The notes beneath the pieces were generated by a model. It was not told the origin of the DNA, did not search any database, and saw only the letters and a list, made by a program, of their open reading frames with translations. A stretch of 64,000 nt of DNA from Geosiphon pyriformis uo1 (taxonomy: Eukaryota > Fungi > Glomeromycota): positions 434,001 through 498,000 of the forward strand of contig JAAOMT010000441.1 of the NCBI GenBank assembly GCA_016748015.1. The letters run 5' to 3'. The stretch's first letter is position 1, and each line of letters starts with the position of its first letter. This document shows positions 14,901 to 55,609 of this stretch, in pieces. The translations under genes were made by a program, and so were the position numbers.

Positions 14901-15875
14901 ACATTCAGGCCTCTTTCCAATGGACCGGAACATCACCAAAACGCAAACAAGAGTTCAGCAAAGACAACAAACACTCCAAAACCAAACAGCCAGCATGTTT
15001 CCAAAGCTTATTGGTGATACCAGACAAACCAGCAGCTTTGCCATCAAGAAAATTGCTTATAACTGAAGACATCTTACACATGGTAATATCACACATGATC
15101 AGACTAAAGGCACCATCATTAACATAGGCAAAAAGAGCATATTGTTGCACCCAGAGACCAGACAAGACAAGAAGAGCATTCCACTTTCTGGTCCAATTAA
15201 CCATGATGTCATCCACTTTGAGCTTCACTTTATTAGGTTCCAAAATAAGAGAATTACCAACAACCAAATAGTCTAGAACAACTTTGCAAAAGGGCTGCTC
15301 CAAGATGCTCTGAATCATCTCACTTTTGTCTGTACTGAACTTCACCATACACTTATCAATTGTATCTCTGATAGCAGATCTTTTGGCCACTTCAGATTCA
15401 TAATATTTGGACTTTCTATATTGCTTTCTAACCTTCAAAAGATGACTTATCAAGCCAGCAGAACTCACACCATCCCCGACCATACCAAAAACTTTGGAAG
15501 CTTTGGAAGGGTCAACTTTAAACCAAGTGTCAGCTGGATGATTAAAGCCCAATGTATCATCCAGTCTCAGCACCTTTAATAACTTAACAACTAACAGCTC
15601 TAACCTGGAAAATTTAGAAGAAAGTTTATTCTTAACACAATCAAATTCACTATACCAATGTCTTGAAAAAATTTCTTCAGCAGAAGTAGTCATGGCTTCA
15701 GCTAGCACCCCCCATATTCCATCTAAGTTGCCATCATTTTCAGCTGTCTTGAACCCATCCAGAGAATCCAAAAGTGCACACTCAGAAAGTTCTTTGAAAT
15801 GTGCCCACTTTTTCTCATCAGCATCTTTAATCTTAAACTTCCAGTGATCCTTATTAGCATGTTTGCAGATGCTGT
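11913..15875 (-). pseudogene. LINE ORF2 3' part (RT, RNase H, Zn finger) with premature stops
   Basis: ORF fragments 14905-15888, 14644-14904, 13693-14418, 13384-13626, 12955-13359, 12682-12930 and 11913-12320 carry successive RT/RNase H motifs. Confidence 0.9.
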
Positions 15876-16872
15876 TATTACCAGACAAAATTAGAGATAT
15901 TATTTAGCATAAAATTATCTTATAATTCCTATCATTAATTAGCATATATTATCGTTTCAAATTATCACTTATTACATTAGCAAAAATGTCCGAAATTATC
16001 ATTTAATTAATAACCCAAATTGTACACAACACAAATGTAACCTAATTGCAATGATCAATCATGCAATACCCTGAACTATGTAATATTCAAAAGTTCGCCA
16101 AAATTTATAGAAATTTGCCGAAATAATTGATAGTTCACCGAAATATCTAATAGTTCACCGAAATATCTAATAGTTCACAGAAATAACTTGTAGTTTGCCG
16201 AAATTTATCTTTAGTTCAGCAAAATTGTAAAAAATAACAAAGTTCAAGTTCATAGAATAGTGTTATGACAAGTTGTATAAAAGAAGAGCTTCTCTCTTCG
16301 AGAAAATGTATCTTATTTTAGATTTAACAATTAGAATCATCCTTTACACACAAAACGAAATAAATATCAAATAATTTGAAAAATCAAATCCTGAATCATT
16401 TCACTTTTGAAATTAACTAATTTCTACAAAACAGTTTGAAATTGATTAGCTACCAATTTCAGTAAACTGTTAGTGACTTCAGGCCTGGATAGAAAATGTT
16501 TCTCTTAACAAAATTCTATTTCTTTTACATTTCTTTTATTTTTCTTTTCTTTTCTTTTTATAATCATTAGAGTAGCCTACAGACAAGATTTCTGTAGAAG
16601 AGTTGACTTTCACAGCAAAGTAGCTATACATTTTAGTGAGCTTCCAGATGAGCAATTTCTGGGAAAGAGTTGACGTTTACTACAACGTAACTATATAAAG
16701 TAACTGGCACAGAATTGGTCATTCCACTTATAAGCCCAGCAGTTCAAATTATAGAAGATAATTTGAAGATAAATTTAGTGATTGGAGGTTCAACCACATC
16801 CAGAAAACGGGAATTCACAGCAAACAAGCATTGACAACATTTAAGAAAAAAGACCAAAAACCTCCAGTAACA
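15876..16872 (+). repeat. 5' LTR of copy 1 (997 bp)
   Basis: Direct repeat of 25105-26081. Family termini TGTTACCAGA...TCTGGTAACA form a 10-bp inverted repeat (here TA... start and ...CCAGTAACA end). TATAAAA at 16276. One extra 20-bp unit relative to the 3' LTR. Confidence 0.97.
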
Positions 16873-16874
16873 TT

Positions 16875-16890
16875 TGGTGCTCTCCCATGG
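16875..16890 (+). promoter_or_regulatory. Primer-binding site (TGGTGCTCTCC...)
   Basis: TGG two bases after the LTR end, complementary to a tRNA 3' end ...GAGAGCACCA. Equivalent site in copy 2 at 30813. tRNA identity not determined. Confidence 0.75.
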
Positions 16891-16917
16891 AAACAACACA
16901 GCAAAAACAACTTCAAA

Positions 16918-19900
16918 GTGGTGACCACACCAGACACAACAACTCTAGAGTATTACCAATCAATTTATACCCACTGCAAGCAAAGATTCAACATTCCAGA
17001 CAGAATTAAAGTTGTCAAGAAATCAGTATACCAATACATTGAAAACTGCATCAACAATTATCTTTTTGGAAATTACAATATTTCAGAAGTTAGAAGCAAC
17101 CTTTACAATAATTTAACACACTATTCACAGTTGGGAACTGAAGACCTTAATAGTGAAACACTTGCCACTTACTTTCACAAACTTAATTTTAACATTATCA
17201 AATACTGTGAAAAAACATATCCAGTGCAGTCTTAATACACTATTGATTTTGAATTGGAAACAGAAACAAGCAACAAAGGCAAAAACAAATTAAAGCAATA
17301 TTCAAGAACCACCCCAAATACTCCAACACNNNNNNNNNNNNNNNNNNNNAAATCAGTATACCAATACATTGAAAACTGCATCAACAATTATCTTTTTGGA
17401 AATTACAATATTTCAGAAGTTAGAAGCAACCTTTACAATAATTTAACACACTATTCACAGTTGGGAACTGAAGACCTTAATAGTGAAACACTTGCCACTT
17501 ACTTTCACAAACTTAATTTTAACATTATCAAATACTGTGAAAAAACATATCCAGTGCAGTCTTAATACACTATTGATTTTGAATTGGAAACAGAAACAAG
17601 CAACAAAGGCAAAAACAAATTAAAGCAATATTCAAGAACCACCCCAAATACTCCAACACTACCAAAAACAACTGCCAAACATTTACAAACACCTGAACAA
17701 GGAACCAGCTCAAAACTTCTATTTACTATCACATCTTTTCTAGCTTCACTTGCACAAGCACAAACACCTAATTCACTCTTGAATCGATTTACAAGACCAG
17801 AAGATTTTACATCACTCAAAAGTCCCACCAGACAACAAGAATCCCTTCAAACTAGTTTCAATCTCCTTGATTTTCTAGCTGAAAATCAAAGTGAACACTC
17901 TGAGACAGCAGCAAATGAAAAAAACAACTCTGAAATAACTGAAAAAGAATCAATAGACAGTAAAAATAAAGAAGACGAAATAACAACATACATCGCAAAA
18001 ATCCCTGAATTCAATGGAGAAGATATTGAGACCAGTCCCCAAGAATGGCTTGACCAAGTTACTAAAGCTGGAGATGCAAATAGATGGAATGCTGCCAGAA
18101 TGTTAAGAACAATTCCCTACTTTCTCAAAGGAACAGCAGGAGAATAGTTTGAAAACTTGGCTGCCCCATTCAATGATTGAAACGCTTTCAAAGCAGCCTT
18201 TCTTGAACAGTTCACCGACAATAATACTTCCATCACCCTTTGCAATTGTTTTTGAAATATCAAACAAGAACCCTCTGAATCTGTTATGACTTATATTGGG
18301 AAATTCAACAAACTTCTCAGACAAATTCGCCAACTCGAAACAAACGATTATTATTCCAATGCTTAAATCTTGGATCAATTTATTGCTGGTCTAAAAGATA
18401 AACTAATTAAAAAGGTTCGCCCACATGTGCCAGAAGATTTAAACTCTGCCATACAGCATGCGAAAAGATACGAAATGGCCATGGAAGAGACCAACCACAC
18501 AAAACTTGTAAATTTGGCAATTGGAAAAACCAGCTTAGCAGCTGAGGAAAAAATTGACCAACTCACAAAGAAAGTTGAAAACTATTTCACCAATCAACAA
18601 CAACAGCAACCCCAAAGATATCAACCACCCCAAAGACGAAATCAAAATAACTTTGCACCACTTTCCAATATCCAGCCTTAGAATTGCCATTACTGTAGAA
18701 TCTCTGGCTACTGGAGAAGAGATTGCAAAAAGCTACAACAAGACCAACAAAATAGAAGTAATCAATGTTACCCTCCACTACAACAATCTTATTATCAACC
18801 GCCACCACCAGCTTACTATCCACCAAGACCCCAATACCAAAATAACTATTATCAGCCTGCCTCACAGCCAATCCAACAGCAATACCAACAACTGCTCATC
18901 CAACATTATCAAGTACCTGTTCAAAGACTGCTTACACAGAATCCATTCATACCACAAAACCAATACCAAGTAAACAACAATAGAATCAGTTCGAATAACC
19001 AATTGGTTTCTCGAAATACCACTCAACCAAGACCCAACCACTACCACACTCAATCCAGTTATTTAACAATGCCAGAAGAACAGGATTTTCACCATACTGT
19101 ACTCTCGGAAGGTAGAGCTGCAGCACAACAACAACAAAATCCTTCCTATACTCCCACTACAATTCCACCAGCCAGAATTGCTGAAAACACTAACCTTTCA
19201 AATATATTCCCTTTTAAGTTCAAAGCAAATAAGTCACCATTTCTGCTTAGCAATGCAGCCGCCAATGAACAAAAAGCAATCACGGCCATGTACACTAAAG
19301 CCGAAGTTGAAGGAAAAACAATTTACTTGATCCTAGACAGTGGATCCGCCGGAAGCATTATCACCTACCAGTTAATGCAACAGTTGAAAAGAAATGTCAA
19401 CCGACCAGCTCAAACAGTAATCGTCACTGCCGATGGCATGAAAAAGACCCCAGTAGGAGAAATTGACAATTTTCCATTCACTCTTGATGGAATCACCATT
19501 CCAGTCAAAGTTCTTGTAATGGACGCACCCTAGTACCAAGCTCTCATCAGAAATGATTGGCTTCAAAAAGCCAATGCTAATCTGAATTGGAAAACACAAG
19601 AATTAACAATTTCTTACCAAGGACAACATGCCCGGGTACCTGTCATTTGTGGTACATTCAACAAATGCTCTGAAAAAGCCCTGGCTTTTGAATTCGAACT
19701 GGAAGAGGAAAAACCCCTCATTAAAACATTCATGGCTCTGGGATTAACGTCCAATTGGGCTGATGAAACAGAACAAGAACATTTTACCCCACACACTAAA
19801 TCCGAAATCTCTGGATGGAATATATCTTACTCAAAACCCAAACCAAGGAAACAACGCCCCTATATTCCTCTTAAATATAAGAACTGTCACAAGAAACTAT

Positions 19901-22858
19901 TGTCAATGGGAGCCTGCATTTCACCTGAAGAAGAATATGAGAATCATACTTGTTATTACTGCAAGGCTTGCCACAGAGAATGATGGGGCCATCTAATAAA
20001 AAGAAGTGGAAAATAGGACAACACCCCTTGTTTGACTTGTGGAGATATGCTACCAGAAGAATGCAATTAGATTGATGTAGCCATGAGAGGAGGAGTCTGC
20101 AATCAGACCTGCCAATATGCTTTATCAATTTCAGAAAAAGTAAAAAGAGGAACACCCTTTAATGCAGCATACAACAGTGCTTTTAACAAACTTTATCACT
20201 ACCCCCATGATGCCAAAATGATTTTCGACCTAGCAATGGCATTAATTAATAGAGCTACCAAAGAAGATGTTCACCAAATGAAGGAAGCAGAATACATTGA
20301 ATACACCATGAAATTAGCTGGATTTGATTACGAAGACGAAGTAAAAATCTACCACCAAATTGCAAGTCACACCTACCCAACCCAAGAAGCTCAAATTCAA
20401 TGATTAGAGCAAATGAACATTAGGCTATGTGAAGAATGTATTATGCCTTGTGATGAACAGTGGTGTTCTGAATGCTATGCTCTTAGCATTCCCTTGTCCA
20501 GCAAAAATGATAAATATGAAATTGAATTTGGAGAACTTGAAGTGACAGAAGAAATTGAGACAACACCCATCTATCTCATCAATAATCAGCCTGCTTTACA
20601 ACTCAAATATTTCAACAACAATGGACAAGGAACAGAAAAAGCCCACAAGATCAATGTTGGATATGATCTAAGATATCCAGGAAAAGATACTCTTACTCTC
20701 AAACCCAAATCTCTCACAAAAATCAACCTCAAAATTGCCCTCAAAATCCCACCAGAAGCAATGGTTCAAATTGCTTCTCGATCATCCTTGGCAAGCAAAG
20801 GAATCAATGTTAGAGGAGGAATCATCAATGCTGGATACACAGGAGACATTACAGTCATGTTACAAAATAAAACTGATAAATCTTTCAAAATTGGATATGC
20901 TGAAAAAATTGCTTAAGCTATCTATTTACCCTTAATCAATATTTTGGGTTTACAATTAGTTAATCAAAGAGAACAGTTGGGAAAAAGCGAAAGAGGAATA
21001 CAAGGTTTTGGTTCAACTGGACGTTTCACAGTTCCAGTAAACATAGCTCTCAATGAACAGAAAGAATCTCACCAGATTTTACAACTTCCACAACCAATTA
21101 CCATTTCACCCTTTGGAGAACACCCTGAAATTTACATTTGTAAAAAGCCAACAACCACACAACAAATTTTTGAATCAAACAAACAAATCTACTTGAAACA
21201 TAATATCTTGATCCCAAACATTTATATTCCAGAAGGAACAAAGAAAGTCTGAGTTACTTTTTACAATCCCAACAATTATCCTATAGTTTTATTAAATAAC
21301 TTAGAAATTGGAATCATTCACAGTAATATCTTTCAACAAGAATTACCCCAAACAGTCCCCGATTTTTCTGAAATTATTGGACATTCACTACCAAAAATCA
21401 ACTCAAACCCCAGCTCTGAAAACTACCATATTGTTATGGAAAAACTATCTCGAATCAACATGGGACAACTTGAACCACAACAACAAAACCAGCTCAAAAA
21501 ACTAATTGCAGATTTTGCCGATATCTTTGCCAAAAACAACAATGACTTAGAAAGAACCGATTTGGTGCAACACTAATACAAGAGATGCCAAACCAAGGCG
21601 ACAACAAGCCTACCGAGTTGCTCCAGAAAGCCACCAATTTATCCAAAAAGAAGTACAACAGATGCTTAACAATGGGCTTATCCAACCATCAATGAGTCCA
21701 TGGGCCTCACCAGTGGTCCTGGTTAAAAAGAAAAATGGAAAGATACGATTTTGTGTTGATTATCGACAACTCAACAGTGTCACTATTGAGGATGCTTACC
21801 CTCTTCCGTGAATCGATGACATGTTAGATGCCCTTGGAAAATCTAAATACTTTTCAACATTAAACCTAGAAAGCGGATACTGGCAAGTTGCCATGGATCC
21901 CAAGGACTGCCCCAAAACAGCATTCACAACACAAGGAAGAAACTACAAATTCAATGTAATGCCCTTTGGATTATGCAATGCGCCAGCAACATTCCAAAGA
22001 CTCATGGATGTTGTATATGCTGGACTCCTTTGGAAATCAGTAGTTGTCTATCTTGATAACACTGATGTTTATTCTCCATCTTTCGAACTTTATTTAATTC
22101 ACCTGTGAGAAGTTTTTCAACAATTACGTAGAGCAGGATTAAAACTAAACATTGAAAAATGCCATTTTGGAAAAACAAGTTTGGTCTTTCTTGGTCACAT
22201 AGTTAATGAAGAAGGAGTCAAACCAGATCCAGGAAAAATCAGTGCTGTTAAGAACTTCAAAGTTCCACAAAATACTACAGAACTAAGAGGATTCATAGGA
22301 TTAGCATCCTACTATCGGAAGTTTATCAAAGAATTCTTGGAAATTGCAAAACCCCTCAACCAGCTCACCACCAAAAACGTTGAATACAAATGGACTACCA
22401 AACACCAAAAAGCTTTTGAAATCCTCAAGAAAAAACTAACAACAGCTCCAATCCTCGCCTACCCAGATTTCAACAACCGATTTCGACTAGCTACAGATGC
22501 TTCATATACTGCCTTTGGTGCCATCTTATCACAACTAAATGACAATGGAAATGAGCAAGTAATTGCCTATGCTAGCAGAACATTAAAACCAGCTGAGAAA
22601 AACTACTCTGCCACAGAACTAGAAACAGCAGCTGTAATTTGGGCCCTACACCACTTCAACCTTTATCTCAGGCCTAAAAAATTCGATATTATCACTGATA
22701 ATATTGGACTCAAATGGCTTCAGAACAAAAATACTCAGCTGAATGCAAAACAAACCCAATGGACAGGATTTCTAGCAAACTATTAATACATAGTACATCA
22801 CAAACCAGGAAAACTCCACACCAATGTTAACTGTCTCTCCAGAATGAGACAAGATTAG
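16918..22858 (+). pseudogene. gag-pol of copy 1: Gag (CA, CCHC knuckle), aspartic protease, Cys-rich insert, dUTPase, RT, RNase H
   Basis: IPEFNGED..PQEWL; degenerate CHYC..SGYWRRDC knuckle; LILDSGSAGS; GYDL/ASRSS/GGIINAGYTG/RGIQGFGSTG; [30 protein letters not shown][N]; LATDAS, NYSATELE, ITDN. Many in-frame stops and one decay frameshift near 21575. Confidence 0.93.
17330..17349. other. Assembly gap flanked by an identical 310-bp duplication
   Basis: 20 Ns; 17020-17329 is repeated base for base at 17350-17659. Confidence 0.9.
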
Positions 22859-22910
22859 AAAAACACAAAAACCAACACTCAACTTAACCAACCAAAAAAG
22901 CCAACAAACA

Positions 22911-24295
22911 ATAAATTCGAAAAACTACAATGATCTCAAACAATATTTGGAAACATTAACAATCCCAACAGATTGGTCTTCAGAGGAAAAACATCGACTA
23001 CAACAACAAGCCAAACAATATTTTCTACACAACAACATTATTTATTACCGAAATTTCAAAAACTCAGACAAACCACTCAGATTAATACAAGAACAGGAAA
23101 AAGAAACTATATTATACAACATGCACTCAGATCCTTCATCAGCCCACTTCAGAAAAGACAGCACCACCCAAAGAACACTAGAATACTACTTTTGGCCTCA
23201 AATAAGAAAAGACATTCACGAATATGTCGAATCTTGTGATAGTTGTCAAAAAAGAGGAGGAACTTGCCCTACAGAACCTTTAAATCCAATCAAAGTTGAA
23301 CAGTCTTTTGACAGAGTTGGTATCGATTTAGTCAGACCACTACCTATCACAAACCAAGGAAACCACTACATTACAGTAGCCGTAGACTATCTCACCAAAT
23401 AGCCTGAAGCCAGAGCCATTCAATGGGCAGATGCAAAATCAGTAGCAAACTTCATCTACAAAGACATCATTGTAGACATAGATGCCCAATAGAACTTTTA
23501 TCTGATCAAGGAACACATTTCATGAACAATTTAATCTAGGAAATTTGTGGACAATTTAATGTCAAGAGACCATTATCTTCATTCTACCATCCACAAACAA
23601 ATGGACTGGTAGAATGGTTCAACAGAACATTGTGTGAATCATTAGCCAAAGTTTCAACTGATTTTGAGCAAGAATGGAATCTCTTTATTCCATCAGTGTT
23701 ACTAGCATATAGGACACTAAAACAAGATATCACAAAACACACACCATTTGATTTAACTTACGGAAGGACGGCAACATTACCAATTAGTTTCACAGTGGAA
23801 ACATACCCAGTACAACCAATCAATGAAAACAATTTCCAAGAAACGCTTCAACAAAGAGCCTACACTCTGCTTAGCACATTGGAAGAAAAACGACAAATAG
23901 CAGCCACTCATATTGAACACTCCCAAGCTCAACAAAAAGAATGGCATGATGACAAATTGCCTCCAGTCACCAATGAATTTAAAATTGGAAACAAAGTTCT
24001 CTTACATAGAACTAAAGCCGAAAAACAATAAAATGGAAAATTTGAAAATAAATGGGATGGACCATTCTTTATCCATGAAGTTTTAGGCAACAGATCATAT
24101 AAGCTAAGACTTGATGACAAAATTCTAGCAAAAGTTGCACATGGAGATCGTTTGAAACACTATAATTCCAGAAACAATTCTGAACTATTAATTCCACAAA
24201 TTGGTACACATTTCCCTTTAATCAATTCCAAAGACATTCCCCAAAATTTAGAACCAATAGTTGTCATTGAACAGCCTCACAACTTGAATACTTAA
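22911..24295 (+). pseudogene. Integrase ORF of copy 1 (HHCC, DDE, GPF module), separate from pol
   Basis: H-SDPSSA-H...CDSC, GIDLV, VDYLTK, SDQGTHF, YHPQTNGLVE, WDGPF. The start codon is decayed to ATA (ATG in copy 2). Confidence 0.9.
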
Positions 24296-24416
24296 TTTAA
24301 ATTTATTATTATAGTTATCTTCTTATAATTTAGAAACAATCTCACAAAAACAAAACAAAAATAACATAAAAACCCATGCACCAAAAATAATTTTCTTTTA
24401 TTTCAAATTGCTTATA

Positions 24417-25136
24417 ATGACTATTCCTCAAAACATTCAACAATTATCCCAAAAACTAATGTTGGTTTTAAAAACAATACCCAAATTATCCATTACTGTT
24501 ACTGAAAACCACATTAATTATACCCAAACAGAAGTAGTTACAAATTTAGCCCCAAATTCACAAAAATATCACCCGTATAAGAAGAACACAAGAAGTTATA
24601 CTGGAATTTACCTGCCAGAACTTTTAAAACTTGCTTTAAGAGAAAACCTAATGCTCACTTTGATTAGTATTCCACCAAATGCTACAATTCAACAAAGACT
24701 TCAACTGTGTTTCAATGAGGAAAATACTGAATATCCTTCAATCTATAGATATTTTCACATTGGAAAAACACTCTACAAATGGAAACTGGAACTTACAACA
24801 GCAAACCTCACAAAAAAAGCTATTCAGAAACAACTTCACAACAAATTCAAGACAACAGCTGAATCAACAAACAGTCGCTACAGGCTTAGAGCTGCTCTTA
24901 GACTTTATGACTTATTCCACACCTGTGAAAACATACTACAAAACCCAAATTTTCAACCTTTGAAGATTCAATACATTGGAAAGCTCACAGAACTGAAATT
25001 TCAACAATTTTCAGACCAAATTTCTTCAATAATTTTGGATTATTATCTGGAAATGACAAACAGTACTTGGACTTTGACAGAGCTCAGTCTTGAAGAGGAG
25101 GTTATGTTACCAGACAAAATTAGAGATATTATTTAG
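24417..25136 (+). CDS. Accessory ORF3 of Gypsy copy 1 (239 aa, unknown function)
   Basis: Intact ORF between integrase and the 3' LTR, ending 32 nt inside U3. Homologous frame in copy 2 (37743-38462). Confidence 0.8.
   Translation: MTIPQNIQQLSQKLMLVLKTIPKLSITVTENHINYTQTEVVTNLAPNSQKYHPYKKNTRSYTGIYLPELLKLALRENLMLTLISIPPNATIQQRLQLCFNEENTEYPSIYRYFHIGKTLYKWKLELTTANLTKKAIQKQLHNKFKTTAESTNSRYRLRAALRLYDLFHTCENILQNPNFQPLKIQYIGKLTELKFQQFSDQISSIILDYYLEMTNSTWTLTELSLEEEVMLPDKIRDII
25092..25101 (+). promoter_or_regulatory. Polypurine tract
   Basis: GAAGAGGAGG three bases before the 3' LTR; GAGAAGGAAG in copy 2. Confidence 0.7.
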
Positions 25137-26081
25137 CATAAAATTATCTTATAATTCCTATTATTAATTAGCATATATTATCATTTCAAATTATCACTTA
25201 TTACATTAGCAAAAATGTCCGAAATTATCATTTAATTAATAACCCAAATTGTACATAACACAAATGTAACCTAATTGTGATGATCAATCATGCAATACCC
25301 CGAACTATGTAACATTCAAAAGTTTGCCAAAATTTATAGAAATTTGCTGAAATAATTGATAGTTCACTGAAATATCTAATAGTTCACAGAAATAACTTGT
25401 AGTTCGCCAAAATTTATCTTTAGTTCAGCAAAATTGTAAAAAATAACAAAATTCAAGTTCATAGAATAGTGTTACGACAAGTTGTATAAAAGAAGAGCTT
25501 TTCTCTTCGAAAAAATGTATCTTACTTTAGATTTAACAATTAGAATTATCCTTTACACACAAAACGAAATAAATATCAAATAATTTGAAAAATCAAATCC
25601 TGAATCATTTCACTTTTGAAATTAACTAATTCCTACAAAACAGTTTGAAATTGATTAGCTACCAATTTCAGTAAACTGTTAGTGACTCCAGGCCTGAATA
25701 GAAAATATTTTTCTTAACAAAATTCTATTTCTTTTACATTTCTTTTATTTTTCTTTTCTTTTCTTTTTATAATCATTAGGGTAGCCTACAGACAAGATTT
25801 TTGTAGAAGAGTTGACTTTTACAGCAAAGTAGCTATACATTTTAGTGAGCTTCCAGATGAGCAATTTCTGGGAAAGAGTTGACGTTTACTACAACATAAC
25901 TATATAAAGTAACTGGCATGGAATTGGCCATTCCACTTATAAGCCCAACAGTTCAAATTATAGGAGATAATTTGAAGATAAATTTAGTGATTGGAGGTTC
26001 AACCACATCCAGAAAACAGGAATTTACAGCAAACAAGCATCAACAACATTTAAGAAAAGAGACCAAAAACCTCTGGTAACA
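25105..26081 (+). repeat. 3' LTR of copy 1 (977 bp)
   Basis: TGTTACCAGA...TCTGGTAACA; direct repeat of the 5' LTR. Confidence 0.97.
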
Positions 26082-26809
26082 CTGTTCAAACAAGCATTCA
26101 GAAGACCATCCAGCCCAATAGACATCAAGACAGCCAAGTGATCTGTGTCAAAAAATTCTGAGACAAAACCAACATCATGATTTACAACAGCTGAAATCAA
26201 AGAGTCACTAACTAGAATATAGTCCAAAACCTTGCTAATGCCTCTTGAATTGCTCCAAGTAGGAATCCTAGCTAGAGAATGGCCACCAAAAACATTAACT
26301 AGACCCAAACCTAAGCATTTTCTAAGACTCACCCTCTTGACTGAATTGTCTTTATTAAAGTCCCCACCCAAAACAACAAAAATACTTTTGTTAACAGTAT
26401 CAGCAATGAATGAATTGATAACAAAAGCCTGAGCAAAATGGTCACCACCAGACACACAAGCATAAAGCCCAATGATAGACACAGAGAGCTTGTTCTTAAA
26501 CAAAAGACAAATTGAAAGAACTTTGCCCTTTACCTCCTCAACTTTGAAAACATGACAAGCCAGAGAATCATTCACAAAAATGGCCACACCAGCCCCACAA
26601 AACCCAACATCCAGACCAAACATAAAAACCCAAACACTCTCAAATTTTTTCATAATCCAAGGTTGTGAACTGGAACACAACTTGGTTTCTGTAACAATCA
26701 AGATTGAACTACCAGATTCCTTATACCAATGAAAAATGTTCTTCTGTTTTGCAGGATTGTTCATTCCCCTAATATTACACATGGCAATTTTCCAAATAAA
26801 ACTGGTCAT
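26082..26809 (-). pseudogene. LINE ORF2 5' part (APE endonuclease)
   Basis: MTSFIWKIAMCNIRGMN...VTETKL...GAGVAIFV...VLGGDFN...TWSNSRG..KVLDYILVS...FDTDH. Confidence 0.92.
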
Positions 26810-29199: not shown

Positions 29200-29828
29200 C
29201 ATATACAGCAATATTCTATTTGGTCAAAATTTGTTTTATAATATTCACTAAATATAGACATATACTAATATTATATCAATATTTACTTTTTATTTAAAGA
29301 TATTATAATTTGTTTAACTAATAGCTAATATATACATATATACATATATACACATATATACAGTTTAAGATATTGCTAATATTAATGATATTTTAAGTAA
29401 CAAATGATTATTATTTGGCCAAAATTTGTTCTATAATATCTGCTAAATATAAGCATGTACTAATATTATATTAATGTCTACTTTTTATTCAAAAATATTA
29501 TAATTTGTTTATCTAATAGCAAGAATACATACATATATATATACAGTTAAAGGTACTGCTGATATTAATAATATTTTAAATAACAAGTGGTTGTTGTTTG
29601 GTTAAAAGTTATTATATTATATTAATCAAACATAGATATATACTAATATTATATTAATGCATACATTTTATTCAAAAATATTATAACTTGTTTATCTAAT
29701 AGCAAGAATATACACACACATATATATATAGCCAAAAATGCTATTAATATTAGTAATATTTTAAATAACAAGTAGTTGCTATTTGGCTAAAATTTGTTAT
29801 ATTGTATTAATCAGATATAAGTATATGC
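29200..29828. repeat. Degenerate ~185-195 bp tandem repeat (about 4 units, continues at 39413-39472)
   Basis: Landmark TTTGGYYAAAA recurs at ~29219, 29414, 29597 and 29782. The last unit is split by the Gypsy insertion. Confidence 0.8.
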
Positions 29829-30810
29829 TGTTACCAGACAAAATTAGAGATATTATTTAGCATAAAATTATCTTATAATTCCTATCATTAATTAGCATAT
29901 ATTATCATTTCAAATGATCACTTATTATATTAGCAAAAATGTCTGAAATTATCATTTAATTAATAACCCAAATTGTATACAACACAAATATAACCTAATT
30001 GCGATGATCAATCATGCAATACCCCAAACTATGTAACATTCAAAAGTTTGCCGAAATTTATAGAAATTCACCGAAATAATTGATAGTTCACCGAAATATC
30101 TAATAGTTTGCAGAAATAACTTGTAGTTTGCCAAAATGTATCTTCAGTTCAGCAAAATTGTAGAAAATAGCAAAGTTCAAGTTTATAGAATAGTGTTATA
30201 ACAAGTTGTATAAAAGAAGAGCTTCTCTCTTCGAGAAAATGTATCTTACTTTAGATTTATCTCTTAAAACCGTTCTTATACACACAAAAAAAAATAAATA
30301 TCAAATAATTCGAAAAACCAAATTCTTTAATTATTGTACTTGGAAAATCCCCAAAACCCAACTAACATTTCGAAATTGATTAGCTACCAATTTCAGTAAA
30401 CTGTTAGTGACTCCAGGCCTAGATAGAAAACGTTTTCCTTGATAAAATCCTATTTCTTTTACACTTCTTTTATTTTTCTTTTCTTTTCTTATTACAATCA
30501 TTAGGGTAGCCTACAGATGAGATTCCTGTAGAAGAGTTGACTTTCACAGCAAAGTAACTACACATTTTTAGTGAGCTTCCAGATGAGCAATTCCTGGGAA
30601 AGAGTTGACATTTACTACAACATAACTACATAAAGTAACTGGCAAGGAATTGGCCATTCCACACATAAGCCCAGCAAATTCAAATTATAGGAGATAATTT
30701 GAAGATAAATTCAGTTACTGGAAGTTCAACCACATCCAAAAAACGTGAATTCACAGTAAATAAGTATTAACAACATTACAGAAAAGAGACCAAAAAAACC
30801 TCTGATAATA
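29829..30810 (+). repeat. 5' LTR of copy 2
   Basis: Direct repeat of 38431-39412, followed by the PBS TTTGGTGCTC. Confidence 0.96.
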
Positions 30811-30857
30811 TTTGGTGCTCTTCTACAGAAACAACACAGCAAAAAAACAACTTCAAA

Positions 30858-33800
30858 GTGGTGATCACACCAGACACAACAACTTTAGTGTATTACCAAT
30901 CAATTTACACCCACTGCAAGCAAAGATTCAACATTCCAGACAGAATTGAAGTTGTCAAGAAATCAGTATACCAATACATTGAAAACCACATTAACAATTA
31001 TCTTTTTGGAAATTACAATATCTCAGAAGTTAGAAGCAACCTTTACAATAATTTAGCACACTATTTACAGTTGGGAACTAAAGACCTTAATAGTGAAACA
31101 CTTGCCACTTACTTTCACAAACTTAAGTTTAACATTATCAAATACTGTGAAGAAACATATCCAATGCAGTCTCAATACACTATTGATTTTGAATCAGAAA
31201 CAGAAACAAGCAACAAAGGCAAAAACAAATTAAAGCAATATTCAAGAACCACCCCAAATACTTCAACACTACCAAAAACAACTGCCAAACATTTACAAAC
31301 ACCTGAACAAGGAACCAGCTCAAAACTTCTACTTACTATTACATCTTTTCCAGCTTCACTTGCACAAACACAAACACCTAATTCACTCTTAAATCGATTT
31401 GCAAGACCAGAAGATTTTACATCACTCAGAAGTCCCACCAGACAACAAGAATCCCTTCAAACTAGTTTCAATCTCCTTGATTTTCTAGCTGAAAATCAAA
31501 GTGAACACTCTGAGACAGCAGCAAATGAAGAAAACAACTCTGAAATAACTGAAGAAGAATCAATAAACAGTGAAAATGAAGAAGACGAAATGACAACATA
31601 CATCGTAAAAATTCCTGAATTCAATGGAGAAGATATTGAGACCAGTCCCCAAGAATGGCTCAACCAAGTTACTAAAGCTGGAGATGCAAATGGATGGAAT
31701 GCTGCCAGAATGTTAAGAACAATACCCTACTTTTTTAAAGGAACAGCAAGAAAATGGTTTGAAAATCTTGCTGCCCCATTCAATGATTGGAATGCTTTCA
31801 AAGCAGTCTTCCTTGAACAGTTCATTGACAATAATACTTCCATCACTTTTCGCAATCATTTTCGAAATATCAAACAAGAACCCTCCGAATCTGTTATGAC
31901 TTATATTGGAAAATTCAACAAACTTCTCAGATGGATTCGCCAACTCGAGACAAACAATTATTATTCTGATGCTCAAATTTTGGATCAATTTATCACTGAT
32001 CTAAAAGATAAACTAATTAAAAAGGTTCGCCCACACGCGCCAAAAGATTTAAACTCTGCCATACAGCATGCAAAAAGATATGAAATGGCCATGAAAAAAG
32101 CCAATCGTACAAAACTTGTAAATTTGGCAATTGGAGAAACCAGCTCAGCAGCTGAGAAAAAAATTGACCAACTCACAAAGAAGGTCGAAAACTATTTTAC
32201 CAACCAACAACAACAACAACCCCAAAGATATCAACCACCCCAAAGACAAAATCAAAATAACTTTGCACCACTTTCCAATAACCAGCCCCAGAATTGCCAT
32301 TACTGTGAAATCTCTGGCCACTGGAAAAGAGATTGCAGAAAGCTGCAATGAAACCAACAAAATAGAGATAATCAATATTACTCTCCACCACAGCAATCTT
32401 ATTATCAATCATTACCACCAGCTTACTATTCACCAAGACCCCAATACCAAAATAACTATTATCAGCCCATCCCACAACCAATCCAACAGCAATACCAATA
32501 ACCACCCACTCAACATTATCAAGTACCTACTCGAAGACTGATTACACAAAATCAATTTACACCACAAAACTGATACCAAGTAAACAACAGTAGAATCAGT
32601 TTGAACAACCAATTAGTTCCCCGAAATACCACTTAAACAAGACCCAACCATTACTACACTCAACCCAGTTATTTAACAATGCTGGAAAAACAGGATTTTC
32701 ACCATACTGCACTCTCGGAAGGTAGAGCTGCAGCACAACAACAATGAAACCTTTCTCATAACCACACCACTATTCTACCAGCCTGAATTGCTGAAAATGC
32801 CAATCTCTCTAATATCTTTTCTTTTGAATTTGAAGCAAATGAATCACCATTCTTGCTTAGCAATGCAGCGGCTAATGAGCAAAAAGTCATCACTGCAATG
32901 TACACAGAAGCTGAAATAAAAGAAAAGCCAATTCGCTTGATTCTAGACAGTGGATCTGCTGGAAGCATTATTACCTACCAGTTAATGCAACAGTTGAAAA
33001 AAAATGTTGACTGACCAGCTCAAACAGTAATTGTCACTGCCGATGGCATGAAAAAGACCCCAGTAGGAGAAATTGACAATTTTCTATTTACTTTTGATGG
33101 AATCACCATTCCAGTCAAAGTTCTTGTAATGAACACACTCCAGTACCAAGCTCTTGTCGGAAATGATTGGCTTCAAAAAGCCAATGCTAATCTGAATTGG
33201 GAAACACAAGAGTTAACAATCTCCTACCAAGGACAACACGCCTGGGTATCTGCCATTTGTGGTACATTCAACAAACGCTCTAAAAAAGCCCCAGCTTTTG
33301 AATTTGAACCAGAAAAAGAAAAACCAATAATCGAAACATTCATGGCTCTTGGATCAACGTCCAACTGGGCCGATGAAACAGAACAAGAATATTTTACCCC
33401 ACACACTAAACCTGAAACCTCTGGATGGAATATACCTTACTCAAAACCCAAACCAAGGAAACAACGCCCCTATATTCCCCTTAAATGTAAGGACTGTCAC
33501 AAAAAACTATCATCAATGGGAGCCTGCATTTTGCCTGAAGAAGAATATGAGAATCATATTTGTTATTACTGCAAGGCTTGCCACAGAGAGCGATGGGGCC
33601 ATCTAATAAAAAGGAGCGGAAAATGGGACAACACCCTTTGTTTGACTTGTGAAGATATGCTACCAGAAGAATGCAATTGGATTAATGTAGCAATGAGAGG
33701 AGGCGTCTGTGATCAGACTTGCCAATATGCTTTATCAATTTCAGAAAAAGTAAAAAGAGGAACACCCTTTAATATAGCATATAATAGTGCTCTCAACAAA

Positions 33801-36193
33801 CTTTATCACTACCCTCATGATGCCGAGATGATTTTCGACTTAGCAATGGCATTAATTAATGGAGCTACCAAAAAAGATGTTCATCAAATGAAGGAAGCAG
33901 AATACATTGAATACACTATGGAATTAGCTGGATTCAATTACGAAGATGAAGTAGAAGTCTACCACCAAATTGCAAGTCACACCTACCCAACTCAAGAAGC
34001 TCAAATTCAATGATTAGAGCAAATGAACATTAGGCTATGTGAAGAATGCATTATGCCTTGCAATAAACAATGGTGTTCTGAATGCTATGCTCTTAGTATC
34101 CCTTTGCCCAGCGAAAATGATGAGAATGAAATTGAATTCAGAGAACCTGAAGAAATGGAAGAAATTGAAACAACACCCATCTACCTTATTGAAAATCAGC
34201 CTGCCTTACAACTTAAATACTTCAACAACAACGGACAAGGAATAAAACCTGAAAAAACACACGAAATTGATGCTGAATATGACCTAAGATATTCAGGCAA
34301 GGATACTCTTGTTCTCAAACCCAAATCTCTCACAAAAATTAACCTCAAAATTGCATTCGAAATCCTGCCAGGAGCAATGATTCAAATTGCCTCCCAGTCC
34401 TCTCTGGCAAGCAAAGAAATCAATGTTAGAGGAGGAATAATTGATGCTGGATATACTGGAGACATAACAGTGATGCTTCAAAATGAAACTGACAAACCAT
34501 TCAAGATCAAACATGCTGAGAAAATTGCCCAAGCTATTTACCTATCCTTAATCAACATTTCGGGTTTGCAACTAGTCAATCAAAGAGAACAATTAGGAAA
34601 AAGCGATAGAGGAACCCAAGATTTTGGTTCAACTGGACGATTCACAGTTCCAGTTAATATAGCTCTTAACACACAGAACAAATCCCACCAGATTCTCAGA
34701 CTTTCACAACCAATTACCATCTCACCCTTTGGAGAACATCCGGAAATCTACACTTGCACAAAGCCAACAACCACACAACAAATTTTTGAGTCCAATGAAC
34801 AAGTCTGCTTGGAACATAATATTTTGATCCCAAACATTTATATTCCAGAAGGAACAAAGAAAGTCCAAGTTACTTTTTACAACCCCAATAATTACCCCAT
34901 AATTTTATTAAATAATTTAGANNNNNNNNNNNNNNNNNNNNNNNNNNNNNNNNNNNNNNNNNNNNNNNNNNNNNNNNNNNNNNNNNNNNNNNNNNNNNNN
35001 NNNNNNNNNNNNNNNNNNNNNNNNNNNNNNNNNNNNNNNNNNNNNNNNNNNNNNNNNNNNNNNNNNNNNNNNNNNNNNNNNNNNNNNNNNNNNNNNNNNN
35101 NNNNNNNNNNNNNNNNNNNNNNNNNNNNNNNNNNNNNNNNNNNNNNNNNNNNNNNNNNNNNNNNNNNNNNNNNNNNNNNNNNNNNNNNNNNNNNNNNNNN
35201 NNNNNNNNNNNNNNNNNNNNNNNNNNNNNNNNNNNNNNNNNNNNNNNNNNNNNNNNNNNNNNNNNNNNNNNNNNNNNNNNNNNNNNNNNNNNNNNNNNNN
35301 NNNNNNNNNNNNNNNNNNNNNNNNNNNNNNNNNNNNNNNNNNNNNNNNNNNNNNNNNNNNNNNNNNNNNNNNNNNNNNNNNNNNNNNNNNNNNNNNNNNN
35401 NNNNNNNNNNNNNNNNNNNNNNNNNNNNNNNNNNNNNNNNNNNNNNNNNNNNNNNNNNNNNNNNNNNNNNNNNNNNNNNNNNNNNNNNNNNNNNNGCTAC
35501 TTCAGAAAAACAAGTTTAGCTTTTCTTGGTCACATTGTTAGCAAAGATGGAATTAAACCAGACCCCGGAAAAATCAGTACTGTCAAGAACTTCAAGACTT
35601 CACAAAATACCACAGAATTAAGAAGATTTATTGGATTAGCATCCTATTACCGAAAATTCATCAAAAGATTCTCAGAAATTGCAAAACCCCTCAACCAGCT
35701 CACTACTAAAAATGTCGAATACAAATGGACAGAAGAACACCAAAATGCCTTCGAGATACTTAAGGAAAAACTCACAACAGCTCCAATTCTTGCCTATCCA
35801 GATTTCAGCAACTGATTCCAGTTAGCAACTGACACCTTTTATACTGCATTTGGTGTCATTCTATTATAGTTAGATGACAATGGAAATGAGCGAATAATTG
35901 CTTATGCTAGTAGAACATTAAAGTCAGCCGAAAAGAACTACCCCGCAACAGAATTAGAAACCACAACAGTAATTTGGGCCCTACATCACTTCAACCTTTA
36001 CCTCAGACCCAAAGAATTTGATATTATCACTGATAATATTGGACTTAAATGGCTTCAAAACAAAAACACCCAGCTAAATACAAAACAAACCTGATGAACA
36101 GGATTTTTAGCTAATTACCAATACATCATACACTACAAACCAGGAAAACTCCACACCAACGTTGATTGTCTCTCAAGGATGAGGCAAGATTAA
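30858..36193 (+). pseudogene. gag-pol of copy 2 (gag to dUTPase in one frame; RT partly in the N gap)
   Basis: ORFs 30858, 33048 and 34023 share a frame. CHYCEISGHWKRDC, LILDSGSAGS, GGIIDAGYTG. RNase H ends RMRQD-TAA at 36191-36193. Confidence 0.92.
34922..35496. other. Assembly gap (575 N) within RT of copy 2
   Basis: Run of N; the corresponding stretch of copy 1 is ~855 bp. Confidence 0.95.
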
Positions 36194-36242
36194 AAAACAA
36201 AACCAACACCCATTTGAATTAACAGCATCAAAACAACAAACA

Positions 36243-37628
36243 ATGAACCCCGAAAACTACAACAATTTCAAACAATATTTGAAGACATTAACAATCCCAA
36301 CAGATTGGTTCCCAGATAAAAAACATTGGTTACAACAACAAGCCAAACAATATTTTCTACACAACAACATTATCTATCATCGAAATTTCAAAAACCCAAC
36401 CAAACCACTCAGATTAATACAAAAACAAAAAAAAGAGACCATTTTATACAATATGCACTCAGATCCTTCATCAGCACACTTCGAAAAAGATAGCACTACC
36501 CAAAGAACACTAGAATACTACTTTTGGCCTTGAATGAAAAAAGACATTCACAAATATGTCGAATCTTGTGATAGTTGTCAAAGAAGAAAAGGAACTCGCC
36601 CTACAGAATCTTTAAATCCAATCAAAGTTGGACAGCCTTTTAACAGAGTTGGTATCAATTTAGTTGGACCACTATCTATTACCACTCAAGGAAACCGTTA
36701 TATTGCAGTAGCTATAGATTATCTTACTAAATGGCCTGAAGCCAGAGCCATTCAACGAGCAGATGCAAAATCAGTAGTAAATTTCATCTACGAAGACATC
36801 ATTTGTAGACATAGATGTCCAATTGAACTTTTATCTGATCAGGGAACACACTTTGTGAACAACCTGATACAAGAAATTTGTGAACAATTCAATGTCAAAA
36901 GACCTTTGTCTTCGCCCTACCATCCACAAACAAATGGACTTGTAGAACATTTTAACAGAACATTGTGTGAGTCATTAGCCAAAGTCTCAACCGATTTTGA
37001 GCAAGAATGGGATCTCTTTATTCCATCAGTGTTACTAGCATATAGGACATTAAAACAAAATACCACGAAACACACACCATTTGATTTAACTTATGGAAGG
37101 ATGGCAACATTACCAATTAGTTTCACAGTGGAAACATACCCAGCACAACCGATCGATAAAAACAATTTCCAAGAAATGCTTCAGCGAAGAGCCTATACTC
37201 TGCTTAGCACATTGAAAGGAAAACAACAAATAGCAGCCACTCATATTGAACACTCTCAAGCTCAACAAAAAGAATGGCATGATGACAAATTGCTTTCAGT
37301 CACCAATAAATTCAAAATTAGAAACAAAGTTCTCTTATACAGAACTAAAGCTGAAAAACAATGGAGTGGAAAATTTGAAAATAAATGGGATGGACCATTC
37401 TTTATCCATGAAGTCCTAGGCAATGGATCATATAAGCTAAGACTTGATGACAAAATCCTAGCAAAAGTTGCACATGGAGATCGTTTGAAACACTATCATT
37501 CCAGAAACAATCCTAAACCATTAATTCCACAAATTGGTACACATTCCTTTTTGATCAGTCCCGAAGATATTCCCTGAAACTTAGAACCAATAGTTGTCAT
37601 TGAACAACCTTCCAATCTGAACACTTAA
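36243..37628 (+). pseudogene. Integrase ORF of copy 2 with its own ATG
   Basis: MNPENYNNFKQYL..., HHCC, DDE core, WSGKFENKWDGPF; two internal TGA stops. Confidence 0.92.
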
Positions 37629-37742
37629 TTTAATTTTACTAGTTATTCTCTTATAATTTAGAACAATCTCACAAAAACAAAACAAAAATAACATAAAAAC
37701 CCATAAACCAAAAATAAATTTTTATTTTTTCAAGTGCTTATA

Positions 37743-38462
37743 ATGACTATTTCTTAAAACATTCAACAATTATCCCAAAAACTAATGTTAGCTTTAAAAA
37801 CAATACACAAATTATTCATTACTGTTACTGGAAACCACATAAATTATACCTAAACAGAAGTAGTTACAAATTTAGCCCCAAATTCATGAAAATATCACCC
37901 GTATAAAAAGAACACAAGAAGTTATACTGGAATTCACCTGCCAGAACTTTTAAAGCTTGCTTTAAGAGAAAACCTAATGCTCACTCCGATTAGTATCCCA
38001 CCAAATGCTACAAGTCAACAAAAACTTCAACTGTGTCTCAATGAAGAAAACACTGAATATCCTTCAATCTATAGATATTTTCACATTGGAAAAACACTCT
38101 ACGAACGGAAACTGGAACTTACAACAGCAAACCTCACAAAAGAAGCTATTCAGAAACAACTCCACAACAAATTCAAGACAACAGCTGGATCAACAAACAG
38201 TCACTATAGGCTTAGAACTGCTCTTAGACTTTATGACCTATTCCACACCTGTGAAAACGTACTACAAAACCCAATTTTTCAACCTTTGAAGATCCAATAC
38301 ATTGGAAAGCTTACAGAACTGAAATTTCAACAATTTTCAGACCAAATTTCTTCAATAATTTTGGATTATTATCTGGAAATAACAGACAGTACTTGGACTT
38401 CGACAGAGCTTAGTCTTGAGAAGGAAGTTATGTTACCAGACAAAATTAGAGATATTATTTAG
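37743..38462 (+). pseudogene. Accessory ORF3 of copy 2
   Basis: Colinear with 24417-25136; three C>T nonsense changes in the 5' third. Confidence 0.8.
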
Positions 38463-39412
38463 CATGAAATTATCTTATAATTCCTATTATTAATTAGCAT
38501 ATATTATCATTTCAAATGATCACTTATTACATTAGCAAAAATGTCCGAAATTATCATTTAATTAATAACCCAAATTGTACACAACACAAATGTAATCTAA
38601 TTGTGATGATCAATCATGCAATACCCCAAACTATGTAACATTCAAAAGTTCGCTGAAATTTATAGAAATTTGCCAAAATAATTGATAGTTCACCGAAATA
38701 TCTAATAGTTTGCAGAAATAACTTGTAGTTTACCGAAATGTATCTTTAGTTCAGTGAAATTGTAGAAAATAGCAAAGTTCAAGTTTATAGAATAGTGTTA
38801 TGACAAGTTGTATAAAAGAAGAGCTTCTCTTTTCGAGAAAATGTATCTTACTTTAGATTTATCTTTTAAAACCATTCCTATACACACAAAAAAAAATAAA
38901 TATCAAATAATTCAAAAAACTAAATTCTTTAATTATTGTACTTGGAAAATTCCCAAAACCCAACTAACATTTCGAAATTGATTAGCTACCAATTTCAGTA
39001 AACTGTTAGTGATTCCAGGCCTGGATAGAAAACGTTTTCCTTGATAAAATTCTATTTCTTTTACACTTCTTTTATTTTTCTTTTTTTTTCTTATTACAAT
39101 TATTAGGGTAGCCTACAGACGAGATTTCTGTAGAAGAGTTGACTTTCATAGCAAAGTAACTACACATTTTTAGTAAGCTTCCAGACAAACAATTCCTGGG
39201 AAAGAGTTGACATTTACTACAACGTAACTACATAAAGTAACTGGCAAGGAATTGGCCATTCTACATATAAGCCCAGCAAGTTCAAATTATAGAAGATAAT
39301 TTGAAGATAAATTCAGTTACTGGAGGTTCAACCACATCCAGAAAACGTGAATTCACAGCAAATAAGTATTAACAACATTACAGAAAAGAGACCAAAAAAA
39401 CCTCTGGTAACA
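38431..39412 (+). repeat. 3' LTR of copy 2
   Basis: TGTTACCAGA...TCTGGTAACA. Confidence 0.96.
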
Positions 39413-55442: not shown

Positions 55443-55609
55443 AATAACAGTCAAAATTAAAAAAATAAAAAATAAAACAATTTTGAACACCAATCTGAAA
55501 AATTATTTTACTAATCTCAAACATAGTACAACCAAAAAGAAAGTAAACCAACTTAATCTTAAACTTATTACAAAACAAAATAGTTTTATTTTAATTTACT
55601 AAAAAAAAA

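What the first reader, a model, noticed from the sequence alone, without database searches (positions are those of the whole stretch)
15876..26081. Complex-retrovirus-like Gypsy family with multiple accessory modules
Two independently inserted full-length copies share one unusual plan: LTR - PBS - AUG-less extension - Gag - PR - triple Cys4 insert - dUTPase - RT - RH - STOP - separate integrase ORF - non-env ORF3 overlapping PPT/U3 - LTR with enhancer-like array and structured U5. Each oddity is in both copies, so it is family architecture rather than decay. I know no described fungal Ty3/Gypsy element with this combination. The accessory parts may form a regulatory or counter-defence system (inference).
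Basis: partly seen in the sequence, partly recalled or inferred. Interest (0 to 1): 0.85.

Follow-up and report, generated by a model that had tools for sequence, protein, structure and literature searches.

The report
Fungal retrotransposon with stand-alone integrase gene
Two dead copies of a fungal Ty3/Gypsy jumping gene belong to a widespread lineage in which integrase is a separate gene with its own start codon behind the stop of the main polyprotein, likely made by ribosomes that stop and restart, and followed by a conserved gene of unknown function.

Summary
Two decayed LTR elements (A 15876-26081, B 29829-39412, 4-bp TSDs) are real; the closest database proteins are named Geosiphon pyriformis. 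Pfam gives Gag, protease, dUTPase, RT, RNase H and integrase. The layout is not peculiar to this family. In 52 of 52 metagenome loci that hold both the RNase H end and the integrase, a stop separates them. 96 of 120 integrase relatives start with Met exactly at copy B's ATG. 19 of 52 junctions lie within -20..+2 nt (9 AUGA/UAAUG); spacers avoid AUG (2 vs 17). Best reading: termination-reinitiation (0.55), untested. ORF3 belongs to a large unnamed helical family (699 clusters), found behind integrase in 33 of 47 loci, with no Pfam or fold match. The Cys insert and dUTPase show purifying selection. Not supported: structured U5, any counter-defence role. Copy A carries an assembly duplication; copy B lacks most of RT (N gap). 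Ten paper searches found no description; this scan noted the split-integrase lineage twice before on other DNA. New variant of a known kind.

The parts
15876..16872 (+). 5' LTR of copy A (first bases TA instead of TG; 10-bp terminal inverted repeat; TATA-like box at 16276)
   Evidence: TSD CTGT on both sides
16082..16204 (+). 20-bp tandem array in U3 (enhancer role untested); one more unit than in the other three LTRs
16875..16890 (+). Primer-binding-site-like tract starting TGG, 2 nt behind the LTR; contains the decaying CpG read as ATG in A; tRNA not identified
   Evidence: sequence, read variants, no tRNA gene in window
16906..17979 (+). Open frame of about 245 codons in frame with Gag, no conserved AUG; includes assembly artefact 17330-17659
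   Evidence: no Pfam or profile match
17980..19278 (+). Gag: capsid domain, CCHC knuckle at 18685-18726, Q/P/Y-rich tail; ATG at 31590 in B, ATA in A
   Evidence: Pfam Retrotrans_gag
19279..19650 (+). Aspartic protease (LILDSGS)
   Evidence: Pfam Asp_protease_2 E 1.8e-8
19852..20502 (+). Cys-rich insert, three clusters of 5-6 Cys, likely zinc-binding
   Evidence: pN/pS 0.39 between copies, p 0.0008; third cluster also before the dUTPase of metagenome protein P0229
20644..21021 (+). dUTPase
   Evidence: Pfam dUTPase E 3.4e-19; pN/pS 0.33
21034..21420 (+). Unassigned domain between dUTPase and RT
   Evidence: pN/pS 0.40, p 0.004; no match to dUTPase profile
21575..22858 (+). Reverse transcriptase and RNase H, ending in TAG three codons after the LSR motif (TAA 36191-36193 in B)
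22859..22910 (+). 52-nt A/C-rich, AUG-free spacer between pol stop and integrase start (49 nt in B)
22911..24295 (+). Separate integrase ORF (N-terminal extension, HHCC, core, SH3-type end); start reads ATA in A, ATG at 36243 in B
24417..25136 (+). ORF3, 239 aa, intact in A; member of an unnamed helical family; runs over the PPT into the 3' LTR
25092..25101 (+). Polypurine tract
   Evidence: sequence
25105..26081 (+). 3' LTR of copy A (40 transitions, no transversion against the 5' LTR)
29829..39412 (+). Copy B, same layout, TSD ATGC, inside a 183-bp tandem repeat; 574 N at 34922-35495

Best explanation
This is a decayed Ty3/Gypsy LTR retrotransposon of a Glomeromycotina fungus whose integrase is a separate, AUG-started gene behind the stop codon of the Gag-PR-dUTPase-RT-RH polyprotein, likely translated from the full-length RNA by ribosomes that terminate and reinitiate. 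Shown: the split, the conserved start codon, the ORF order, their spread over many relatives. Inferred: reinitiation at a few percent would give little integrase per Gag in an element whose Gag and RT are one ORF; in this family (49-52 nt spacer) by short forward scanning, in relatives by AUGA/UAAUG overlaps. Inferred: the dUTPase cleans the dNTP pool for reverse transcription; relatives carry Nudix or thymidylate-kinase-like domains in other slots. ORF3 is a lineage-wide accessory protein; my best guess is a nucleic-acid-binding factor of the element's own cycle (0.4), since HTH proteins fill the same slot in two relatives; untested.
For: 52 of 52 loci (of 80 fetched) with both RNase H end and integrase have a stop between them, 0 fused; offsets -20..+2 in 19 (AUGA 5, UAAUG 4), 24-97 nt in 27, over 200 nt in 5, -55 in 1. 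96 of 120 integrase relatives begin with Met in exact register with copy B's ATG. Of 68 long RT relatives at 49% identity or more, 48 end within 35 aa of the RNase H end and 9 have a non-integrase tail. Start context: purine at -3 in 42 of 48, G at +4 in 36 of 48. Spacers hold 2 AUG against 17.0 in dinucleotide shuffles (0 of 1000 as low; 24 spacers), while equal lengths of RNase H coding sequence just upstream hold 28. All three frames occur, against read-through or a fixed frameshift. No conserved splice donor or acceptor position (best 11 and 7 of 37); in 7 of 44 loci no AG lies between the last upstream AUG and the integrase AUG. The next junction (integrase to ORF3) is AUGA in L036 and L055 and UAAUG-type in L037. 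UAAUG coupling works in a fungus at 2.5-4.4% (PMC2699510, abstract).
Against: No RNA or protein data. The spacer in these two copies (49-52 nt) and in 32 of 52 loci is longer than the 20-30 nt over which TURBS-type reinitiation works (PMC10275272, passage). AUG-free spacers and good start context fit a short subgenomic RNA equally well; five loci have spacers of 201-1026 nt, and the four of them that were examined contain AUGs. No shared RNA structure or lineage-wide motif near the junction (mean z 0.07-0.7). Three Rhizophagus clarus gene models join RT to integrase by skipping the RNase H end. One origin of the split is only weakly supported (bootstrap 70, SH-aLRT 76, with a long plant branch inside; 0.966 in FastTree). 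How a free integrase enters the particle is unexplained.
Confidence: 0.55

Rival explanations
1. Integrase (and ORF3) are made from subgenomic RNAs started at an internal promoter in the RNase H end or spacer, as separate transcription units.
For: Strong start context and AUG-free spacers fit a short 5' UTR; spacers of 201-506 nt with AUGs in L048, L050, L052, L068; one subgroup shares spacer motifs (TAACGG in 8 of 26, 0.64 expected).
Against: Exact AUGA/UAAUG overlaps in 9 of 52 loci and out-of-frame AUGs a few to 40 nt upstream of the start in overlap loci would leave almost no room for a transcript start.
Confidence: 0.25
2. A splice removes the stop and fuses RT to integrase, or puts integrase behind the 5' leader (foamy-virus-like).
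For: R. clarus gene models P0200, P0209, P0220 show such a join; an intron-like polypyrimidine/AG tract lies in U5 (16520-16570) and a TTTTTTCAAG 10 nt before ORF3 in B; rotifer ORF3s are said to be typically expressed from spliced messages (PMC5408684, passage).
Against: The join deletes the RNase H C-terminal motif; its sister L026 has a plain UAAUG junction; no conserved donor or acceptor; a fusion would not need a conserved Met (96 of 120).
Confidence: 0.12
3. The accessory parts (extension, Cys insert, dUTPase, ORF3) form one regulatory or counter-defence system.
For: Cys insert and dUTPase are under purifying selection; ORF3 is kept across the lineage.
Against: The parts do not travel together: PR-RT linkers of 55 relatives run 102-362 aa, 20 with a CxxC, few with dUTPase; relatives have a different, Met-started Gag N-terminus; no match to a known suppressor or regulator; both copies are heavily deaminated (CpG o/e 0.29-0.32).
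Confidence: 0.08
4. The stop is decay or the integrase is made by read-through or frameshift.
For: Both copies carry many decay stops; one metagenome relative (P0198) is a natural fusion.
Against: 0 of 52 loci fused, three different frames, spacer lengths from -20 to over 200 nt.
Confidence: 0.05

Closest known systems
Ty3/Gypsy (Metaviridae) LTR retrotransposons, e.g. Ty3-G
   Same: LTRs, PBS, PPT, TSD, Gag with CCHC knuckle, order PR-RT-RH-IN; best solved relative of the integrase profile is Ty3-G Gag-Pol (E 6e-51).
   Different: Integrase is outside the pol ORF with its own AUG; extra ORF3; 4-bp TSD (most LTR elements 5 bp, PMC6839031 passage).
dUTPase-bearing fungal Gypsy elements (PosPlaTy3-5 of Postia, Tmt1 of Tuber, Phanerochaete elements) and rotifer Juno/Vesta/TelKA
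   Same: dUTPase between PR and RT; non-env ORF3 in rotifer families (PMC2864245, PMC5408684, PMC6431247; passages).
   Different: The passages seen describe pol as containing integrase; no chromodomain here; ORF3 does not match GDSL, DEDDy or env families in Pfam.
Termination-reinitiation systems: hypovirus CHV1 (UAAUG), caliciviruses and influenza B (TURBS), non-LTR retrotransposon SART1
   Same: AUGA/UAAUG stop-start overlaps in relatives; downstream ORF needed in small amounts (PMC2699510 abstract, PMC10275272 passages).
   Different: Here in an LTR retrotransposon and for integrase; many spacers of 24-97 nt; no TURBS-like element found.
Foamy viruses and other complex retroviruses
   Same: A Pol-type enzyme made apart from Gag, and a 3' ORF reaching into U3 (recalled).
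   Different: No env; RT groups with Gypsy-type elements; split lies between RNase H and integrase, not between Gag and Pol.
Ginger1 DNA transposons
   Same: Stand-alone Gypsy-like integrase, TG..CA ends, 4-bp TSD (PMC6839031, passage).
   Different: This element has direct LTRs of about 980 bp, Gag and RT, and only a 10-bp terminal inverted repeat.

Membership tests
Ty3/Gypsy (Metaviridae) | Direct LTRs with TG..CA ends, TSD, PBS and PPT | tested here: met
   one terminal base changed in each copy's 5' LTR
Ty3/Gypsy (Metaviridae) | Gag, then PR-RT-RH-IN order | tested here: met
   Pfam
Ty3/Gypsy (Metaviridae) | Gypsy-type RT, RNase H and integrase | tested here: met
   RVT_1, RT_RNaseH, Integrase_H2C2; Ty3-G best PDB hit
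Ty3/Gypsy (Metaviridae) | Integrase encoded within the pol polyprotein | tested here: not met
   Stop after RNase H in both copies and 52 of 52 loci; this is the variant feature
Chromoviruses | Chromodomain at the integrase C-terminus | tested here: not met
   No chromodomain family at E 0.1 in either copy's integrase, none listed for the 120 relatives
Named Gypsy clades (GyDB, REXdb, Repbase) | RT groups with a named reference clade | not testable with these tools
   No reference set on hand; trees used only the search hits
Errantiviruses / complex retroviruses | env-like ORF or homologues of known accessory genes | tested here: inconclusive
   ORF3 has no Pfam hit above cut-off and no fold match; an unlisted family is not excluded
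TURBS/UAAUG termination-reinitiation | Stop and start within about 20 nt | tested here: not met
   49-52 nt in the two window copies; met in 19 of 52 relatives
TURBS/UAAUG termination-reinitiation | Downstream translation depends on upstream termination; no subgenomic RNA | not testable with these tools
   Needs reporter assay and RNA data
Ginger1 DNA transposons | Long TIRs and integrase only, no RT | tested here: not met
   LTRs, Gag and RT present

The most novel reading that the evidence does not exclude
An undescribed major lineage of Gypsy retrotransposons in mycorrhizal and related fungi runs as a eukaryotic operon: one RNA, three cistrons (Gag-PR-RT-RH, integrase, ORF3) chained by stop-restart translation, with a free integrase that must be packaged without Gag fusion, a new accessory protein family of about 700 clusters, and swappable nucleotide-pool enzymes (dUTPase, Nudix, thymidylate-kinase-like).
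Probability: 0.4. Interest if true: 0.85.

Novelty: new variant of a known kind. Interest (0 to 1): 0.7.

Why it matters
Retroviruses and LTR retrotransposons are taught to make integrase as the tail of a Gag-Pol or Pol polyprotein, which also brings it into the particle. A widespread lineage with a free, AUG-started integrase needs another way to dose and package it, and offers dozens of natural stop-start junctions to study reinitiation after long ORFs in fungi. It also bears on annotation: LTR sequences cover 41.2% of the G. pyriformis genome (PMC11952901, passage), and these integrases and ORF3 proteins are filed as stand-alone hypothetical genes.

Tried and rejected
No whole genome was held, so copy number and family-wide layout could not be counted. 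No RNA holder was listed; expression is open. Run X1 may be the source sample and is not independent; its contigs were used only to see variants. First ORF3 model from Geosiphon-only alignment was poor (pLDDT 46) and its fold search empty. The better model (pLDDT 80) gave no Foldseek hit at E 0.001 in PDB or viral libraries and best VIA Z 4.7. Atlas look-alikes of an ORF3 relative (closterovirus coat 0.94, 152 shared features; RegA-like 0.92) are leads only. The Cys insert has no solved relative (antibody-chain noise). The Gag extension matches neither the relatives' H-H-CxxC Gag N-terminus nor ORF3; its pN/pS is 1.73 on 30 differences and ORF3's 0.73 on 38, both uninformative. Post-dUTPase segment is not a second dUTPase by hhalign. 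U5 folding is unremarkable. Viral contigs gave only three weak integrase hits. Two rows (Gag, RT) were out of frame and were redone. A notebook entry places Nudix between PR and RT; one search shows it upstream of PR in P0186. Paper searches found no description of a separate integrase ORF in Gypsy elements; subscription journals, Repbase Reports and supplements were not seen and could hold one.
Full report
What is there. Self-comparison shows two copies of one LTR element: A at 15876-26081 and B at 29829-39412, 88-89% identical. Each has LTRs of about 980 bp that differ only by transitions (40 in A, 47 in B), a 4-bp TSD (CTGT, ATGC) and a PBS-like and PPT tract. A sits inside a minus-strand LINE-like ORF: the flanks read open for 199 codons across the site and the right flank has a weak endonuclease hit. 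B sits in a 183-bp tandem repeat. Both are dead; CpG o/e is about 0.3. A has an assembly artefact (20 N plus an exact 310-bp repeat) and B has 574 N over most of RT. A's frameshifts near 21575 and 23470 are copy lesions, since B or the run contigs read otherwise. All 120 listed of 199 ORF3 relatives other than the window's own protein are named Geosiphon pyriformis, up to 92% identical, so the host is that Glomeromycotina fungus or a close relative.

Domains. Pfam gives Retrotrans_gag, aspartic protease, dUTPase, RVT_1, RNase H, Integrase_H2C2, rve and a sub-threshold SH3_Tf2-1; no chromodomain. In B the frame from the extension through dUTPase is continuous, so Gag, PR and RT are one ORF. It ends three codons after the RNase H LSR motif. 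Integrase follows in the +1 frame after 52 nt (A) or 49 nt (B), with ATG in B and ATA in A.

The split integrase is lineage-wide. Among long RT relatives (120 listed of 7871), 68 are 49% identical or more: 48 end within 35 aa of the RNase H end (one of them before the motif), 9 have a non-integrase tail, 11 are fused (8 metagenome proteins, 3 R. clarus gene models). Integrase relatives are 400-440 aa proteins from R. irregularis and metagenomes; that search excluded fused forms by length, but 96 of 120 start with Met in exact register with B's ATG. DNA settles it: of 80 metagenome loci (best 80 of 353), 52 hold both the RNase H end and the integrase start, and all 52 have a stop between them. 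Offsets are -20..+2 nt in 19 (AUGA 5, UAAUG 4, -8 four times, -11 three times), 24-97 nt in 27, over 200 in 5, -55 in 1. In FastTree on 142 RT-RH rows the split elements, P0198 and the three R. clarus models form one 92-tip group at 0.966, with L063 outside. In the careful tree on 62 of these rows, all split rows lie on one side at only 70/76, with a long plant branch among them and the natural fusion P0198 outside. One origin is likely but not shown; no named reference clades were available. Hosts of the metagenome loci are unknown; named relatives are Glomeromycotina.

How integrase is likely made. After dropping four loci with unclear starts, the AUG has a purine at -3 in 42 of 48 and G at +4 in 36 of 48. 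After dropping four more near-duplicates, 24 spacers of 20-110 nt hold 2 AUGs, both in L079, against 17.0 in dinucleotide shuffles, while the same lengths of RNase H coding sequence hold 28. No donor or acceptor position is conserved. AUGA and UAAUG are the known marks of termination-reinitiation (PMC10275272, passages), which works in a fungus at 2.5-4.4% (PMC2699510, abstract). I put reinitiation at 0.55, an internal promoter at 0.25, splicing at 0.12. Against: the window's own spacer exceeds the 20-30 nt TURBS range, no common structure was found, and no RNA could be examined. The inferred purpose is a low integrase-to-Gag ratio in an element with a single Gag-RT ORF; packaging of the free enzyme is unexplained.

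ORF3. It is intact in A (239 aa) and ends 32 nt inside the 3' LTR. A profile of Geosiphon copies matches an independent set of 28 proteins from the same slot in metagenome loci (hhalign 89%, E 2e-6); L001 has a 30% identical copy. 33 of 47 loci with 500 nt or more behind integrase carry the family; most of these were in the training alignment, three were not, and four shorter untrained loci also hit. The joint profile finds 699 clusters at E 0.001, 356 at 1e-10, with named members from R. irregularis (one gene model joins integrase and this domain), Glomus cerebriforme, Gigaspora margarita and Cetraspora pellucida; a repeat-rich bacterial protein among the hits is noise. The model is a helical bundle (pLDDT 80) without a database match. 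In L036, L055 and L037 ORF3 is itself coupled to the integrase stop; in the window the gap is 114-121 nt. L031 and L049 have HTH proteins and L030 a Nudix protein in this slot.

Other modules. Between the copies, the Cys clusters (pN/pS 0.39, p 0.0008), dUTPase (0.33), post-dUTPase segment (0.40), RT/RH end (0.24) and integrase (0.61) show purifying selection; the count is crude (transition sites only, CpG not modelled). The PR-RT linker is a variable slot: 102-362 aa in 55 relatives, 20 with a CxxC, about 640 aa here. dUTPase occurs in five listed relatives and Nudix in three, a thymidylate-kinase-like tail below Pfam cut-off in L056. The five dUTPase motifs (recalled) are all seen in at least one copy. 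The 1350-nt leader to the Gag ATG is AUG-poor (5-6 against about 15, 0 of 300 shuffles), and about 245 codons upstream of Gag are open in frame; whether they are translated from a near-cognate start is unknown.

Known work. dUTPase between PR and RT is described for fungal Gypsy elements (PMC2864245, PMC6431247; passages), non-env ORF3s for rotifer families (PMC5408684; abstract and passages). Passages of PMC3248453, PMC11952901, 10.1101/2021.03.30.436303, 10.64898/2026.05.21.726589 and PMC6839031 do not mention a separate Gypsy integrase ORF. Ten searches found none; Repbase and closed journals were not searched. Two earlier notes of this scan report the same split on other DNA; my counts were made before I saw them.

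Verdict. Observation mostly right, interpretation partly. The notable thing is the stand-alone integrase and the unnamed ORF3 family, shared by a wide lineage, more than this family's list of modules. New variant of a known kind; interest 0.7.

Noticed in passing
window 12000-15875 and 26082-28200, minus strand: LINE-like element interrupted by copy A; frame is open across the empty site; a second related stretch lies at 62769-63621 (64% identity).
   Followed up: partly
window 29217-29828 and 39413-39472: 183-bp tandem repeat that copy B has inserted into.
   Followed up: no
window 55436-58716: Large inverted self-match (3.4 kb, 66%) in very AT-rich DNA; could be a decayed foldback element or low-complexity noise.
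   Followed up: no
window copies A and B: Divergence is patchy: about 4-5% in the Gag extension and ORF3, about 16-17% in dUTPase and RT/RH, and a diverged block in R/U5; suggests mosaic elements from template switching.
   Followed up: partly
window 16462-16570: Intron-like tract in U5 (GTAAAC, polypyrimidine run, TTAG), present in all four LTRs.
   Followed up: no
L005, L007, L037, L038, L048, L049, L056, L073, L076: Relatives' Gag starts with a Met-initiated domain with invariant H, H, D and CxxC (alignment A6), likely zinc-binding and unrelated to the window's extension.
   Followed up: partly
L056:2357-3013; L030:1945-2886; P0186, P0207, P0210: Nucleotide-pool enzymes in other slots: thymidylate-kinase-like tail after RNase H, Nudix ORF after integrase, Nudix upstream of the protease (P0186).
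   Followed up: partly
L012, L037, L005, L006: Gag or RT lies downstream of integrase and ORF3 in the contig, as expected from circularly permuted assembly through a collapsed LTR (or tandem copies).
   Followed up: no
window 8912-10357 (+) and 44253-45707 (-): Probable host genes: an RRM-containing ORF and a repetitive YtxH/apolipoprotein-like ORF.
   Followed up: no
P0369, P0504: The ORF3 domain occurs in larger Gigaspora and Cetraspora proteins, twice in P0369; possibly host-recruited or on other elements.
   Followed up: no
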